Assembly (NCBI RefSeq): GCF_006345805.1
Contig: NC_042997.1
Span: forward strand, 129,890,001-129,954,000
DNA from: Octopus sinensis
Taxonomy: Eukaryota
Reading direction: 5' to 3'
Length of the DNA stretch: 64,000 nt
The translations under genes and the position numbers were made by a program. This document shows, piece after piece, positions 6,251-51,225 of this stretch. The notes under the pieces are model-generated. The model saw nothing but the letters and a program-made list of their open reading frames with translations, was not told the origin of the DNA and searched no databases. Numbering within the stretch: the first letter of the stretch is position 1; each line of letters opens with the position of its first letter.

Positions 6251-6871
6251 TGTATGTATGTATGTATGTATGTATATATGTATGTATGTATGTATGTATG
6301 TATGTATTTATGTATGTATGTATGTATGTATGTACGTATGTGTGTGTCCTTGTGTTTGTATACGTATCCCTACACTGCTTTTCAGTGAGTGTTGGTTTGT
6401 TTAGGTCCCTGTATCTTAGTGGTTTGGTGAAAAAGACTAAGAAAATAAGTACCAGACTTAAAAGATAAAGGTCAAAGACTTAAACTAATAAAAGATAAGA
6501 TACATATATATATATGTGTATGTATGTTTATGTACACACAAACACATGCATGTGCATGCACACACACACACACACAAGCATATATGCATATATACATAAA
6601 TATATATGTATATATTTATGTATATGTACATATATATACATATATACTTACATACATATATATATATTTCGTTTTTGGATTTGGCTTGCAAGATTCTTTA
6701 TATGAGTTCGTCAGACACAACAGTATATATATATATATATATATATATCTATATATATATATATATATATATATACATATATATAATATATATATATATA
6801 TTATATATATATATATATATCTGTAACTATAATATGTGACAATTATTCGGTAGCATTTTTTTTGATCGCCC

Positions 6872-6932
6872 GATAACTGAAGAGATTGTGGTGTGGGTTT
6901 CCACCCCGACATTCGAAATTCGGAGTTTTATC
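6872..6932 (+). ncRNA. Type I hammerhead ribozyme motif inside a ~150-bp element with ~40-bp inverted arms (6819-6972)
   Basis: gataa-CTGAAGA-gattgt..acattc-GAAA-ttcggag-TT-ttatc, with stem I gataa/ttatc; arms ATCTGTAACTATAATATGTGACAATTATTCGGTAGC and its complement; next to (TA)n. Confidence 0.7.
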
Positions 6933-7489
6933 ATGGCTACTGAATAATTGTCACATATTATATTTACAGATAAATTCCTCTATTTACATAATATCGAGGT
7001 CTCTTTCATTCTTTTGTTGTCTTACCATTTCTATCAATATATATATATTTTCACACACATTTTTATAAACACATTTGCATGCAATTATAGGTTTGTGAGT
7101 CTGTATGGCATGTGTGTGTGTGTATGTATGTGTGTGTGTGTGTGTGTGGTGTGTGTGTGTGTCTATATACTGTCTGTCTGTACAGTGTAAGGAAGAAAGT
7201 TTACAAACTGGCAGAAAAGTTTGGCACCATTAGTAAAAATTGTTCGCTACGAAAAGGTCAGGTATTTTTGTCTGATGTCTGGTGAACTCACAATAATTCT
7301 TGTGTGGGCTCAGCAGCTGGTTTGCTTATTGGGGGTATGATTGTTGAGCTCATCTACAGTCCAAAGCTGCTATATAAAGTATTTGGTAGCTAGTCCACTG
7401 CCCATAAATGTTGTGACTCTCGCTGCCTCAGCAATTGCTAGAAACACTGTGATAACTGGTACATGTATATATATACAGACATACATACA

Positions 7490-9430
7490 CACGAATATAC
7501 CTCTTGTCATTCATGTTAAGGAAATCTGAAGGATATCTCACTGGTTCCCAAAAGAAACAAAAATACCAAAATTACACACTGTTTCTTTGTGGATGACTTG
7601 AAACTATGCAAAGAATATGCACGAGATGAAAAAGAGCCTTGACCTAGTTACAGTCTCAAAGGAGTTACGACTGGAGTTTGGCCAGGATAAATGTTGTTAT
7701 ATGGTTGTGAAAAGAGGAAATACTGTAAATCAGTCTAGTAACACTTCCCCTCTATCTGACGAGGAATGTTACAGGTATCTAGGGGTGGATGAAGACACAT
7801 CTTACAATGGCATCTGTAACAAAATGCATGTCACTAAGGAATATTACAGCTGAATAAAGAAAATTTAGACCTCAGAACTCTCTGCATTCAATAAAACAGT
7901 AGTTCACAATGTGTTTGCAGTGCCAGTACTCATACCAACATTTGAACTGTTTAATTGGACGCTTGATGAGATCCGAGCCATTGATGCGAAAACCTGAAAA
8001 ATACTAACAAGCACACATAATTTCCTCATAAACAGTGACATAGACTACCTATACCTAAAACAAAAACAAGATGGCAGAGGTTTAACATCGATCCAAAATG
8101 CCTTTTAATGTCATATCATATCCATTTGGCAACATCTTTTAACCAAGTGTTGAAGCGCGTTCTATGACCGAGTTGGCATACATAAAGCTGATAACATCAT
8201 AAAACTTAGAAGGCAGCTCCTTGAGCAACACTCTTTGTCTGATAACCTAGAATACATGCCCAAAGAAGTCATACGACTCTACTGCAACATATCATCAGAT
8301 ACAAGGATGAGCCTATATGGGCAGAAAACTATGCATGGATATGTTACTAGAAAGCTCCATGATGATAGTAACATCGATCATCAAAGGAGTTTATCACAAG
8401 GACCAATAACCGGATTACTACCTCCCACTTTGAAGGGTATGCATTTGCAATCCAGGAACACGAAATATCAACCAAGTACTTGATGCACAAAAGGGACAGA
8501 GATGCAGGAAAAACAGTAAAATGTGACAACTGATGCAGATTTTGTGGAGCTAACACTGAAGATATTATTCACATCATAAGCAGTTGTCCGAAAATGTCAT
8601 CATGGTATTATTTACCAATGAGACATGATGTTGTAGCCAGGACACTCTATAATGAAATCCATTGGAAGGATAACCCCGAGGACAAAGAAATAAGAACCCA
8701 CAGTATGGTAGAAGCCATAGCCACTGATAATAAAAAGGAGTACTGGTGGAATGTTCCACTGAAAACCTCAATAAAATGTAAACACAACAAACCTGATATA
8801 ATGATTTGGGATAGAGAGATTTGGGATTTGGGATAGAGAGTTGCCCAGCGGATTTTAACATAAAGCTGAAGATCAATGAAAAAGAGAATACCTGCGCTGT
8901 GCTATTGAGAAATCTGCAGTTGCTCTATCCAGATTACAAGCTCAGGTTTATACCTGTAACTATTGGGGCCATGAGATATGTAACACTCTGCCTAAATACC
9001 AATCTTAAGAAATTAAGTTTCTCAAAACCAGAAAGGAGAAAGTGAATTCGAAGACTACAGATCCAATCCATCATTGGAACTGTAAAAATCTGTAAAACAT
9101 TTCAGAAGTTTATCATTTAAATATATATATGAGCATGTCTAGATATGCAACTATATACATGAGAATACATAGATAAAGCAAAACATAAAAATCTGCACAC
9201 ATACATACATGCATACATACATACATACATACATACATACATGCATGCATGCATGCATACATACATACATACATACATACATACATACATACATACATAC
9301 ATACATACCTACATACAAAGATATCCAGTTGTCGATGTTGAAATTCCAATGAAGGAGCCTTGGATCTAGGTTAGAAACTATCTCTTTCTCTATTGGCAAG
9401 AAATCTTGAAATGAAACTGAACAATGGTAT
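7490..9430 (+). mobile_element. Dong/R4-like non-LTR retrotransposon with restriction-like endonuclease, 5'-truncated pseudogene
   Basis: RT motif ITHCFFVDDLKL (~7570-7610), YRYLGV, CCHC knuckle CRFCG..EDIIHIISSC, RHDVVA and KPDIMIWD..IESCPAD (RLE); many stops and frameshifts; stop at ~9118; 3' UTR contains (TACA)n. Confidence 0.85.
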
Positions 9431-10109
9431 ACATAAATGGTGGCTGTTGGCACATTGATGAGTATGACCTCCAATAATAAATGATCATAGAATCTCTAGA
9501 CAACGGCTATCAGGAGTGCACATGCTGAAATTTAAAGTCAATAACAGCTTGCACAACACTGCTGGGACTCTCACCTACAAAGCCAAGTTGTTAAGATACA
9601 AACAGGCAAGACCTTTGACTTCACAATGAGGCAGAAACTATTTCAGTATTTCTTTTTCCTCAAGAGATGTCAAAACAAAAAGTAGCAGTCTCCTACTTCC
9701 AGCTATTGCAAGGCCATTGTCTCTATAGAGTTCATCCATCCTTTGGCAGATTTAATTTTTTATCTAGCAAGATGTCTAATGAAAATCGCCTTCCTTACCA
9801 ATAAGTGGTTGTGACATTTGGGTGATCAAAAAAGCGAGGAGATAGGTATGTCCACTGACAGACTGTCTGGTGTTAATTCATTGTTGATAAAAACTGCCAT
9901 TTCCCCAGACCTACATTGCTTATGTTAGAAGGATATAAAAAATATCCCTTAAAATATTCACCACTAACTACATTTTTGTTTAATTTGGCCAAATTTACAA
10001 TTTCCTACAAAACTATCCGTCTTTTATTTTTCATGTTTCACTCGTTGGACTGTGGCCACACTGGGGCACTGCAATGAAGGGATTTTTACTTGAAAAAATC
10101 AACCTCATT

Positions 10110-10530
10110 CTCTTTTATTTCTTTTTTACTTGTTTCAGTCATTTTACTGTGGCCATGCTGGAGCACCGCCTTTAGTCTAGCAAATCGACCCCAGGACTTA
10201 TTCTTTGGAAGCCTAGTACTTATTCTATTGGTCTCTTTTGCCGAACTGCTAAGTTACGGAGATGTAAACACACCACTATTGATTGTCAAGTGATGTTGGT
10301 GGGGGGGGGGGGTCAAACACAGACGCACAAACATATACACATATATACACACACATATATATATACATATATACAACAGGCTTCTTTCAGTTTCCGTCTA
10401 CCAAATTCACTCATAAGACTTTGGTCGGCCTGAGGCTATAGTAGAAGACACTTGCCCATGGTACCACACTGTAGGAATGAACCTAGAACCATGTGGTTGG
10501 TAAGCAATCTACTTACCACACAGCCACCAG
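10110..10530 (-). mobile_element. SINE family B
   Basis: Reverse complement of the family B consensus seen at 54980-55375. Confidence 0.8.
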
Positions 10531-10748
10531 CGTGGTACTTATTCTGTTGGACTCTTTTGCCAAACCACTGAGTTACAGGGAGGTAAATAAACCAACACCA
10601 TTTGTTGAGTGATTGCTGGCCAGACAAATACAGGCTCAGATGCATACACACACAGGCACATATACACACGCACATACACAGACATACAATGGGCTTTGAC
10701 ACAGTTTCTGACTAGTAAATTCACTCATGAAGACTGGTCAACTTGAGG

Positions 10749-49929: not shown

Positions 49930-49967
49930 CTGTCTGATGAACGGCAACGAGAAACTCAGAGTAACAG
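49930..49967 (+). ncRNA. Minimal type I hammerhead ribozyme motif in a ~150-bp element (49919-50071) between (TA)n tracts
   Basis: aaaactgt-CTGATGA-acggcaacga-GAAA-ctcagag-TA-acagatttt; extended stem I, GUA triplet; stem II closing pair mutated. Confidence 0.75.
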
Positions 49968-50307
49968 ATTTTGTTGAATTTTCTGCTGCTTTAAATAAAG
50001 CATATTACTCTACCACTGGTATTTGAGTACTCTTTTTTCCACCTTGTTTCACATTTATGTGTTTACTCCGGTATATATATATATATATATATATATGAAA
50101 TAGAAAGATGAATAATCTTGTAGTAGATTAATCAAAAGTTTAACCGATACCTTAGTAGCAAAAATCACAGCAGTAAACAGCACGGTTGGAGGTACAACCA
50201 TATGGTGTTGCAACCGTGCGTTGGTGCGGATAATTGAAATTAAAACATTATTGGTGAATTGAAGAAATGGAGCTGAACGCAGATTGAACAGAAATCGTTT
50301 TATTTCA

Positions 50308-50387
50308 TTCTACACGTGTTTCGAAAGGCACAAATTACCAAAATCCGATTGAATAATGGGACCATATTGTGTCTTTCTCTTCAGGAA
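50308..50387 (-). ncRNA. Type I hammerhead ribozyme motif (left arm)
   Basis: Exact mirror of 50628-50707. Confidence 0.85.
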
Positions 50388-50627
50388 GAAAATAGGAAAT
50401 CCGTTGGAAAAACAAAAACAGAACAGAGGCGGAGCAAAAACAAATCGAACTATGCTCCTAAGAGCCCATGGTGAAACTGTTTATCAGTGTATGTTGAGAA
50501 ACGGTGGCCACCGGTTCTCAACATACACTGATAAACAGTTTCGCCATGGGTTCTTAGGAGCATAGTTCGATTTGTTTTTGCTCCGCCTCTGTTCTGTTTT
50601 TGTTTTTCCAACGGATTTCCTATTTTC

Positions 50628-50707
50628 TTCCTGAAGAGAAAGACACAATATGGTCCCATTATTCAATCGGATTTTGGTAATTTGTGCCTTTCGAAACACG
50701 TGTAGAA
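50628..50707 (+). ncRNA. Type I hammerhead ribozyme motif (right arm), intact core
   Basis: ttc-CTGAAGA-GAAAGACACAA...TTGTGCCTTTC-GAAA-CACGTG-TA-gaa; long stem II with G-C closing pair, palindromic stem III, GUA triplet at 50702-50704. Confidence 0.85.
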
Positions 50708-51225
50708 TGAAATAAAACGATTTCTGTTCAATCTGCGTTCAGCTCCATTTCTTCAATTCACCAATAATGTTTATATATATATATATATATATTTATATAT
50801 ATTATCATCATTGTTTTAACGCCCACTTTTCCATGCTTGCATGAGTCAGACAGAAATTGTTAACCCAGATTTTCTACAACCTGATGCCTTGTCTAACACC
50901 AATCCTCACCTGTTTCCAAGGAAAGTAATATTTCCCCATGGTTAGACATGTTTTTTCATGGAAGACTGGAAACAAGCAACATTATTTGTGTGAAAGTAAT
51001 GCTCATTTAAATGCTCATTAACAACCATCACATGATATCAAAACATACAAACAAAAACACTCACATGCACGCATGAATGCATGCACACATGTAGACATGC
51101 ACACACGCATGCACACACACACACACACACACACACACACACACCACACACACACACACACACACACACATACCCACATTTCTGTGTCAGAGTGTATGTG
51201 CCTAAAATACATAAGCATATATATA

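What the first reader, a model, noticed from the sequence alone, without database searches (positions are those of the whole stretch)
6819..50772. Cluster of sequence-unrelated hammerhead-ribozyme mini-elements living in (TA)n microsatellites
Seen in sequence: at least six loci (6872+, 13486+, 15300-/15674+, 35399+, 49930+, 50308-/50628+) carry the full core CUGANGA..GAAA..UH with base-paired stem I, plus variants at 13896-, 24605- and 32190+. The loci share no obvious primary sequence outside the core, encode no protein, and all but 35399 sit in or next to (TA)n. Stem III is a tiny palindrome or near-palindrome (CAGCTG, TGATCA, CTAG, CACGTG, CTCAGAG). Established knowledge: such type I hammerheads mark Penelope-like element pseudo-LTRs and retrozymes, and are thought to cleave as dimers through the palindromic stem III. 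Inference: several distinct non-autonomous ribozyme-bearing retroelement families colonise TA microsatellites in this genome at roughly one per 10 kb, a hidden self-cleaving RNA layer that ORF-based annotation misses.
Basis: partly seen in the sequence, partly recalled or inferred. Interest (0 to 1): 0.85.

Follow-up and report, generated by a model that had tools for sequence, protein, structure and literature searches.

The report
Core-opened hammerhead in Naiad retroelements
Most of the self-cutting RNA motifs in this stretch of animal DNA are ordinary tail ends of Penelope-like jumping genes, but one is a knotted hammerhead fold whose chain is opened inside the catalytic core; the same fold recurs at the ends of many Naiad elements, a group reported to lack canonical hammerheads, and it likely cuts itself.

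Summary
The six type I hammerhead loci are real (7 hits against 0.015-0.035 per shuffled window). They are known biology: truncated or inverted ends of Penelope-like elements (PLEs) in TA repeats; three of the six families are tied to Hydra-type RT or GIY-YIG frames. A random 400 kb holds 4 hits, not one per 10 kb. 24605- is no hammerhead. The prize is the 'variant' at 32162-32279. Its blocks run site-GAAA-CUGAUGA (non-circular order), and stem II is made with a strand upstream of the cut site, so the chain is broken between A9 and G10.1 and the gap is filled by two extra helices. The same fold, in unrelated letters, follows Naiad RT frames in this genome (11 of 20 loci) and in metagenomes (14 of 64 loci, none antisense), with strong covariation. 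22 of 90 copies of the window's lineage start just after the predicted cut, a likely footprint of cleaved RNA; a second family shows no such pile-up. I found no description in the papers searched. This scan noted a core-opened hammerhead in phages, and a permuted hammerhead in another PLE, on other DNA. Cleavage is untested.

The parts
32162..32279 (+). Core-opened, non-circularly permuted hammerhead fold (element H). Order: P5 5' strand 32162-32167, P6 hairpin 32168-32199 (damaged in this copy), stem II 5' strand 32200-32204 (G10.1 = 32200), P4 5' strand 32206-32212, stem III 3' strand 32220-32224, H17 = 32225 (predicted cut after it, GUU), stem I 3' strand 32226-32231, 2-nt linker, stem II 3' strand 32234-32238, GAAA 32239-32242, stem III 5' strand 32242-32246, P4 3' strand 32255-32261, stem I 5' strand 32262-32267, CUGAUGA 32268-32274, P5 3' strand 32275-32279
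   Evidence: cross-family covariation
31784..32498 (+). 5'-truncated copy of an approximately 815-nt non-coding repeat unit (H) that ends in (TA)n; other copies form partial tandems, inverted pieces and a 77-nt tail, as PLE insertions do
   Evidence: 996 exact-core copies of the lineage, 0 for the reversed control pattern
6872..6932 (+). Type I hammerhead, family A (element about 6845-7048); this copy is diverged from its family; 2644 search candidates
13486..13596 (+). Type I hammerhead, family B (element about 13245-13776); this copy has A at 10.1 where most family copies have G; 2344 candidates
13892..13927 (-). Type I-like motif with CUGUNGA core (A6U), family G; lies 3' of GIY-YIG frames in L169 and L145
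15303..15388 (-). Type I hammerhead, family C, inverted arm (one change in stem III palindrome)
15676..15760 (+). Type I hammerhead, family C; 3' end of a PLE with C-terminal GIY-YIG frame (L060, L068, L070); 2082 candidates
35399..35437 (+). Type I hammerhead, old family D; only 7 candidates, matching over the ribozyme region alone; not near (TA)n
49930..49967 (+). Type I hammerhead, family E (unit 49917-50071 between TA runs; tandem arrays in L195; precedes a PLE RT frame in L198); 446 candidates
50308..50387 (-). Type I hammerhead, family F, inverted arm
50628..50707 (+). Type I hammerhead, family F; 3' end of a young Hydra-type PLE whose RT and GIY-YIG frames are seen in L184; many copies 100% identical over 266 nt; 1273 candidates
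24480..24790 (.). Fold-back repeat with long inverted arms; not a hammerhead (no core in this or other copies)

Best explanation
The window holds ordinary type I hammerheads at the ends of several Penelope-like element families, plus one knotted hammerhead fold typical of Naiad element ends, in which stem II is built from a strand upstream of the cut site and which likely self-cleaves as a monomer. Shown by sequence comparison: block order site-GAAA-CUGANGA; stem II pairs with the upstream strand and always starts with G10.1-C11.1; helix P4 ties the far end of stem II to the far end of stem I; helix P5 pairs the bases right after A9 with the 5' flank, and hairpin P6 ends right before G10.1. 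This is the plain CSG form (seen in nematode Naiads and in L238) with the end of stem III joined up and the chain reopened between A9 and G10.1. Inferred: P5 and P6 stack so that A9 and G10.1 lie side by side and the normal core forms; the RNA is cut after H17 without a partner molecule; the cut trims read-through transcripts of tandem copies; a Naiad RT/endonuclease copies the non-coding H RNA in trans into TA repeats, and sometimes copies only the 3' cleavage product. Odds: fold as drawn about 0.93; self-cleavage about 0.8; H moved by a Naiad protein about 0.7.
For: Chance: 1 of 500 shuffled windows and none of 400 kb random regions pass the full descriptor. 20 representatives (5 own genome, 15 metagenome; nearest-neighbour identity 54-84%): G10.1-C11.1 in 20 of 20 with the upstream strand, which the search did not ask for; the register next to CUGANGA pairs at that position in 2 of 20 and 3 of 20; P4 at or below -3 kcal/mol in 19 of 20 against 8 of 196 slid controls; P5 12 of 20 against 8 of 200; P6 at or below -6 in 14 of 20 against 69 of 250. 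In a five-member clade aligned by MAFFT alone, stem II is 100% paired with two-sided changes in 5 of 6 pairs; 0 of 500 shuffles reach the covariation score. Link to Naiads: 11 of 20 own-genome Naiad RT loci have the motif 3' on the same strand; 14 strict hits, 1 weak hit and 1 CSG hit among 64 metagenome loci with 250 nt or more after the frame, 0 antisense; hits fall in at least three supported RT groups (quick tree). By eye, 10 core-opened and 7 CSG motifs in Naiad consensus excerpts of the PMC8557442 supplement. The CSG layout with P4 matches CSG-1 and CSG-2, which cleave in vitro (PMC10085705). Footprint: 22 of 90 H-lineage copies begin in the 10 nt between the predicted cut and stem II, against 0-4 per 10 nt over the next 90 nt; some begin at the first base after H17.
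Against: No cleavage assay and no 3D model. Stems I-III were search criteria, so their pairing counts are partly by construction. The second own-genome family (3' end of the Naiad itself) shows no pile-up at its cut: 2 of 60, one an internal deletion. About half of the H pile-up lies only 1-3 nt upstream of stem II, so RT drop-off at that helix is not excluded. 48 of 64 metagenome loci have no hit; a 20-row RT clade has no strict hit. No Naiad frame was found beside H in 30 + 20 loci. The window copy has a damaged P6 and two private changes that allow a 7-bp G-U-rich stem II next to the core; nested folding predicts inactive alternatives. P5 is only 3 bp in some families and absent in 3 of 20. 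In a Poseidon PLE, hammerhead cleavage was not needed for insertion in vitro (PMC11167929).
Confidence: 0.78

Rival explanations
1. The 32190 motif is a plain type-SGC hammerhead: stem II forms with the G-rich bases right after CUGAUGA, and the upstream match is a regulatory decoy.
For: The window copy can form 7 bp there (-5.9 kcal/mol against -4.6 upstream); the H lineage keeps a GGGG run after the core.
Against: Only 1 of 24 scored H copies (30 examined) has 5 or more adjacent pairs; 17 of 20 representatives have 0-2 adjacent pairs, and the GGGG run covaries with the upstream P5 strand instead (L111).
Confidence: 0.06
2. The fold is real but no longer a ribozyme: it is a hammerhead-derived handle for the Naiad RT or a translation or stability element, and the truncation pile-up reflects RT drop-off at stem II.
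For: No direct cleavage data; no pile-up in the second family; break in the core backbone has no tested precedent in the papers I saw.
Against: CUGANGA, GAAA, A15.1-U16.1 and H17 are kept in all 20 representatives while only N7 and the stems vary; the pile-up stops at the predicted cut; the sister CSG layout cleaves (PMC10085705).
Confidence: 0.12
3. The motif cleaves only when assembled in trans or across two tandem copies, like the dimeric type I motifs.
For: H occurs in partial tandems; the linker between stems I and II is only 1-6 nt in 18 of 20 representatives, which is tight.
Against: All partners lie within about 120 nt of one copy; stem III is a real 4-7 bp helix, not a palindrome; short linkers of about 3 nt are normal in cis-cleaving SGC ribozymes (PMC10085705).
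Confidence: 0.04

Closest known systems
Type-CSG and type-SGC hammerhead ribozymes (Eckert et al. 2023, PMC10085705)
   Same: Reverse cyclic order of the three blocks, three mutually crossing stems, short linker between stems I and II, an extra helix (P4 here) joining the far ends of stems I and II, all core bases kept.
   Different: That paper assumes CUGAnGA is directly followed by its stem II strand (six possible forms). Here it is not: the chain is opened between A9 and G10.1 and two more helices fill the gap. SGC was found only in metatranscriptomes and CSG as two metagenome sequences without host; here the motifs sit in animal genomes at the ends of a named retroelement clade.
Naiad Penelope-like elements (Craig et al. 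2021, PMC8557442)
   Same: N-terminal GIY-YIG, DKA motif, RT; TA-repeat targeting; partial tandems, inverted pieces, tails; octopus families with a noted 'HHR_half_core'.
   Different: The paper reports no canonical hammerhead and did not resolve the 'core' and 'half core' cases; the fold described here accounts for at least part of them. Element H itself carries no frame.
Minimal type I hammerheads of PLE pseudo-LTRs (Cervera and de la Pena 2014, PMC4209133); Hydra clade PLEs (PMC8557442)
   Same: The six type I loci: short palindromic stem III, proposed dimer cleavage, many solo truncated copies, opposite-strand pairs; family F resembles Hydra-1_Obim by eye.
   Different: Nothing essential; family G has a fixed A6U core change.
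Non-LTR retrozymes (bioRxiv 10.64898/2026.07.22.740005)
   Same: Non-coding, ribozyme-bearing units derived from PLE ends (H, and the E arrays in L195).
   Different: Retrozymes carry type I motifs in tandem arrays; H is dispersed, with a permuted motif.

Membership tests
Hammerhead ribozyme (32162-32279 fold) | Core bases CUGANGA, GAAA, UH | tested here: met
   window sequence; 20 of 20 representatives; search criterion
Hammerhead ribozyme (32162-32279 fold) | Stems I, II, III around the core with covariation | tested here: met
Hammerhead ribozyme (32162-32279 fold) | Site-specific self-cleavage after H17 | not testable with these tools
   indirect footprint in H, absent in the second family
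Type-SGC hammerhead | Block order S, G, C | tested here: met
Type-SGC hammerhead | Stem II 5' strand directly after CUGANGA (block C intact) | tested here: not met
   adjacent register pairs at 11.1 in 2-3 of 20; upstream strand 20 of 20. Possible only in the window copy itself
Type-SGC/CSG hammerhead | Helix joining the other sides of stems I and II | tested here: met
   P4 19 of 20 against 8 of 196
Type I-III (circular) hammerhead | Nested three-way junction without crossing stems | tested here: not met
   for 32162-32279 all three stems cross; met for the six type I loci
Naiad PLE (carriers of the fold) | N-terminal GIY-YIG, DKA motif, RT in one frame | tested here: met
   alignment; all 16 hit loci have DKA; own-genome RT loci
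Naiad PLE (element H) | Own RT/endonuclease frame | tested here: not met
   none beside H in 50 loci; H is at most a non-autonomous partner
PLE insertion pattern (element H) | 5' truncation, partial tandem, inverted piece, 3' tail, TA target | tested here: met
   3' end abuts (TA)n in 14 of 26, most others run into the tail
Hydra clade PLE (families F, C, E) | RT followed by C-terminal GIY-YIG, Hydra-type RT | tested here: inconclusive
   order met in L184; likeness to Hydra-1_Obim by eye only; Pfam gave no RT or GIY-YIG hit; no tree built
Minimal type I PLE hammerhead | Dimeric cleavage through palindromic stem III | not testable with these tools
   palindromes present (a descriptor criterion); mechanism from PMC4209133

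The most novel reading that the evidence does not exclude
Naiad retroelements from ctenophores to octopus carry an active hammerhead in a seventh wiring, opened inside the catalytic core between A9 and G10.1, with nematode Naiads carrying the related CSG wiring. Non-circular hammerheads are thus a standard, ancient part of an animal retroelement clade, present in over a thousand copies in this genome, and their cleavage products are themselves retrotransposed.
Probability: 0.72. Interest if true: 0.88.

Novelty: new variant of a known kind. Interest (0 to 1): 0.82.

Why it matters
It would add a hammerhead wiring outside the six thought possible, show that the backbone link between A9 and G10.1 can be replaced by a helical junction, give the orphan non-circular hammerheads a host and a job, and undo the argument that Naiads thrive without hammerheads. 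Standard descriptors and Rfam miss the fold, so it is probably overlooked in many invertebrate genomes. It is testable with a 120-nt transcript.

Tried and rejected
Rfam: no hammerhead family among the 150 rows shown for the window and no match at gathering level in 18 Naiad loci, two of them known hits. Pfam gave no RT or GIY-YIG family on five frames. Word-index protein search with a short Naiad piece found nothing; the viral collection held no Naiad relative. Sequencing runs: no RNA holder listed; four runs laid were contigs only and cannot show ends or expression. A core relaxed by two mismatches gave scattered hits on both strands and inside frames, treated as noise. One antisense hit inside a frame (L303) treated as chance. 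First reading as plain SGC dropped after cross-family comparison. First truncation map was confounded by TA flanks and redone. MAFFT does not align the distant families, so no covariance model was built. The careful tree did not finish; the quick tree is used only for spread. The GIY-YIG match upstream of H in L373 is a C-terminal endonuclease of another element. 24605- rejected as hammerhead. Lunse et al. 2017 was not held; I saw only its citation.
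Full report
Setting. The window lies at G000:C1:129890001-129954000 in a 2.72-Gb genome, is 36.7% G+C and full of microsatellites. Its ten frames of 150 aa or more are repeat read-throughs or pieces that look like LINE frames by eye. The host is very likely an octopus: motifs from published Octopus Naiad consensus sequences match exactly at 302 and 2 places; this is inference.

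Observation. A type I descriptor finds 7 motifs at the six stated loci; shuffles give 0.015-0.035 per window, maximum 1 in 4 x 200. A relaxed core adds 13923-. Seven of eight loci lie within 250 nt of a (TA)5+ run against 20.5% of background positions. Family 3' ends abut TA in 12 of 16 (A), 17 of 19 (B), 14 of 22 (C), 15 of 16 (E), 10 of 18 (F) and 14 of 26 (H) distinct copies; in C, F and H most of the rest run into the element's own tail. In 40 random regions of 10 kb the same descriptor finds 4 motifs, about one per 100 kb. 24605- is a fold-back repeat without core.

The type I loci are known biology. Each is a repeat family (candidates, not copy numbers: A 2644, B 2344, C 2082, D 7, E 446, F 1273). 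F is the 3' end plus inverted copy of a young element whose RT and C-terminal GIY-YIG frames are seen in L184 and which resembles Hydra-1_Obim by eye. C follows a related endonuclease frame in 5 of 25 loci, E precedes a related RT in 1 of 15. No clear frame was found for B (20 loci) or D; for A one of 15 loci has an endonuclease-like tail by eye. G has U at core position 6 in all 9 other parsed copies and lies 3' of GIY-YIG frames in L169 and L145. This matches the minimal, probably dimeric PLE hammerheads of PMC4209133 (passages) and the TA-targeting Hydra clade of PMC8557442 (passages).

The locus at 32190 is something else. The blocks run cut site, GAAA, CUGAUGA, the non-circular order that PMC10085705 (parts 2-5 of 8 read; supplement part 2 and one search) calls SGC and found only in metatranscriptomes. 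But the strand before GAAA pairs with a strand 20-40 nt upstream of the cut site, not with the bases after CUGANGA. The full order is: P5 5' strand, hairpin P6, stem II 5' strand, P4 5' strand, stem III 3' strand, UH, stem I 3' strand, short linker, stem II 3' strand, GAAA, stem III 5' strand, P4 3' strand, stem I 5' strand, CUGANGA, P5 3' strand. The full descriptor passes 1 of 500 shuffled windows and finds nothing in the 400 kb sample.

Comparative support. The genome holds several families with this fold: the H lineage (996 exact-core copies, control 0), the Naiad 3' end (302), and L061, L063/L078/L352 and the decayed L099 found by chance in flanks. From metagenomes I obtained 80 Naiad loci (the best of 380 relatives among 596 stretches). 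Of 64 with 250 nt or more after the frame, 14 have a strict core-opened hit, 1 a weak relaxed hit, 1 a CSG hit, 48 none; the antisense strands have none. L270 has the motif upstream of its frame. In 20 representatives, 10.1-11.1 is G-C in 20 of 20 with the upstream strand, and positions 2-4 of stem II show 2-4 pair types; the adjacent registers pair at random levels. P4 (19 of 20 against 8 of 196 controls) and P5 (12 of 20 against 8 of 200) were not search criteria. P6 is more weakly supported as a statistic (14 of 20 against 69 of 250 at -6 kcal/mol), though free folding of the 50 nt upstream ends a hairpin exactly before G10.1 in 10 of 16 own-genome copies, many of them related. In five related Naiads aligned without structural help, 97.3% of cells pair, stem II has two-sided changes in 5 of 6 pairs, and 0 of 500 shuffles reach the covariation score; P5 is invariant there and says nothing.

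Link to Naiads. PMC8557442 states that Naiads lack canonical hammerheads, target (TA)n, and that some have an unexplained core or half core. In text-search excerpts of its supplement I read by eye 10 core-opened motifs (Obim, Ovul, Amil, Aacu, Anas named by neighbouring headers; five more whose names follow only from file order: ctenophore, hydrozoan, two probably cubozoan, one probably arthropod) and 7 plain CSG motifs with the same P4 (three Nippostrongylus families by header; four more in the nematode part of the file) among 54 consensus sequences; I did not see the whole file. In this genome 11 of 20 Naiad RT loci have the motif 3' on the same strand. On a quick RT tree the hits fall in at least three supported groups, while a 20-row clade has no strict hit; three loci of that clade show a hairpin that looks twister-like from memory, in line with earlier notes of this scan. 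H itself is a non-coding unit of about 815 nt with partial tandems, inverted pieces and a 77-nt tail; no Naiad frame was found beside it in 50 loci.

Does it cut? Not shown. Indirect sign: of 90 H-lineage copies taken from the first-listed genome matches (80 loci; the first 20 were picked to spread over subfamilies, the next 60 in listed order), 22 begin in the 10 nt between the predicted cut and stem II, against 0-4 per 10 nt over the next 90 nt; some begin at the first base after H17. Five with enough sequence downstream run from there towards the element's 3' end, four of them into (TA)n. Against: half of the pile-up is only 1-3 nt upstream of stem II, and the Naiad 3' family shows no pile-up (2 of 60). 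The latter also shows that pattern anchoring alone does not make such a peak. The window copy is worn: P6 is damaged and two private changes allow a G-U-rich stem II beside the core; 19 of 30 family copies keep all three stems intact.

Mechanism (inferred). Joining the end of stem III to P4 in the CSG form and reopening the chain between A9 and G10.1 gives the fold seen. P5 starts 0-2 nt after A9 and ends 0-3 nt before P6; P6 ends 0-2 nt before G10.1; stacked, they would put A9 beside G10.1. PLE hammerheads already tolerate a bulged base at this point (PMC4209133). With a real stem III the motif should cut as a monomer. As P5 needs the bases after the core, the fold completes only when all of it is transcribed. 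The role in mobility is open: in one Poseidon element cleavage was not needed for insertion in vitro (PMC11167929, passages).

Novelty. Searches for hammerhead with 'type-SGC' (1 paper), 'non-circular permutation', 'Naiad', 'permut' + 'Penelope' from 2022, 'G10.1' + 'insertion', 'rearranged' + 'retrotransposon' from 2023 and 'octopus' showed no description of this fold or of permuted hammerheads in Naiads; most hits were seen as listings only. The library lacks most subscription papers, and supplements of the 2026 retrozyme preprint (passages read) could not be seen. Earlier AI notes of this scan mention a core-opened hammerhead in phages, a permuted hammerhead in another PLE and twisters in clam Naiads; I did not test them beyond a motif look. 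Verdict: the cluster as described is real but known; the 32190 locus leads to a new variant of a known ribozyme class. Interest 0.82.

Noticed in passing
L262, L282, L287 (metagenome Naiads): A conserved hairpin motif that looks twister-like (from memory) in the RT clade without strict hammerhead hits; Naiads may fill the same slot with two ribozyme classes.
   Followed up: partly
window 13892-13927 (-), family G: Abundant family (4 blast rows in 400 kb random sample) with fixed A6U core change and intact stems; activity unknown.
   Followed up: partly
L184:1271-6397: Young Hydra-type PLE with long RT and GIY-YIG frames, inverted 5' piece and TA on both sides; many copies identical over 266 nt.
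   Followed up: partly
L238:3455-3610: Plain CSG hammerhead 3' of a long-branch Naiad frame in a metagenome contig; a third metagenome example beyond the two published.
   Followed up: partly
L298, L306: Core-opened motifs with long (23-31 nt) linkers between stems I and II, so the short linker is not obligatory.
   Followed up: no
L195:785-1670 (-): Four copies of the 152-nt E unit separated by short TA runs, a retrozyme-like array.
   Followed up: no
window 24480-24790: Common fold-back repeat with about 100-nt arms and a 50-nt unique centre; class not determined.
   Followed up: partly
window 21366-21800 and 22630-23060: Local duplication with about 1264-nt spacing.
   Followed up: no
L048 (-) near 3130-3230: Possible further, decayed family in S-G-C order without a clear upstream stem II.
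   Followed up: no
L116-L135, L438-L477: 5' ends of Naiad 3' copies are slightly more frequent 20-60 nt upstream of stem II's 3' strand (13 of 60), in the P6/stem II region.
   Followed up: partly
L380: Internal deletion joining the stem II 5' strand directly to the first base after the predicted cut.
   Followed up: no
window 63920-64000 (-): A second, truncated copy of family G without the ribozyme part.
   Followed up: no
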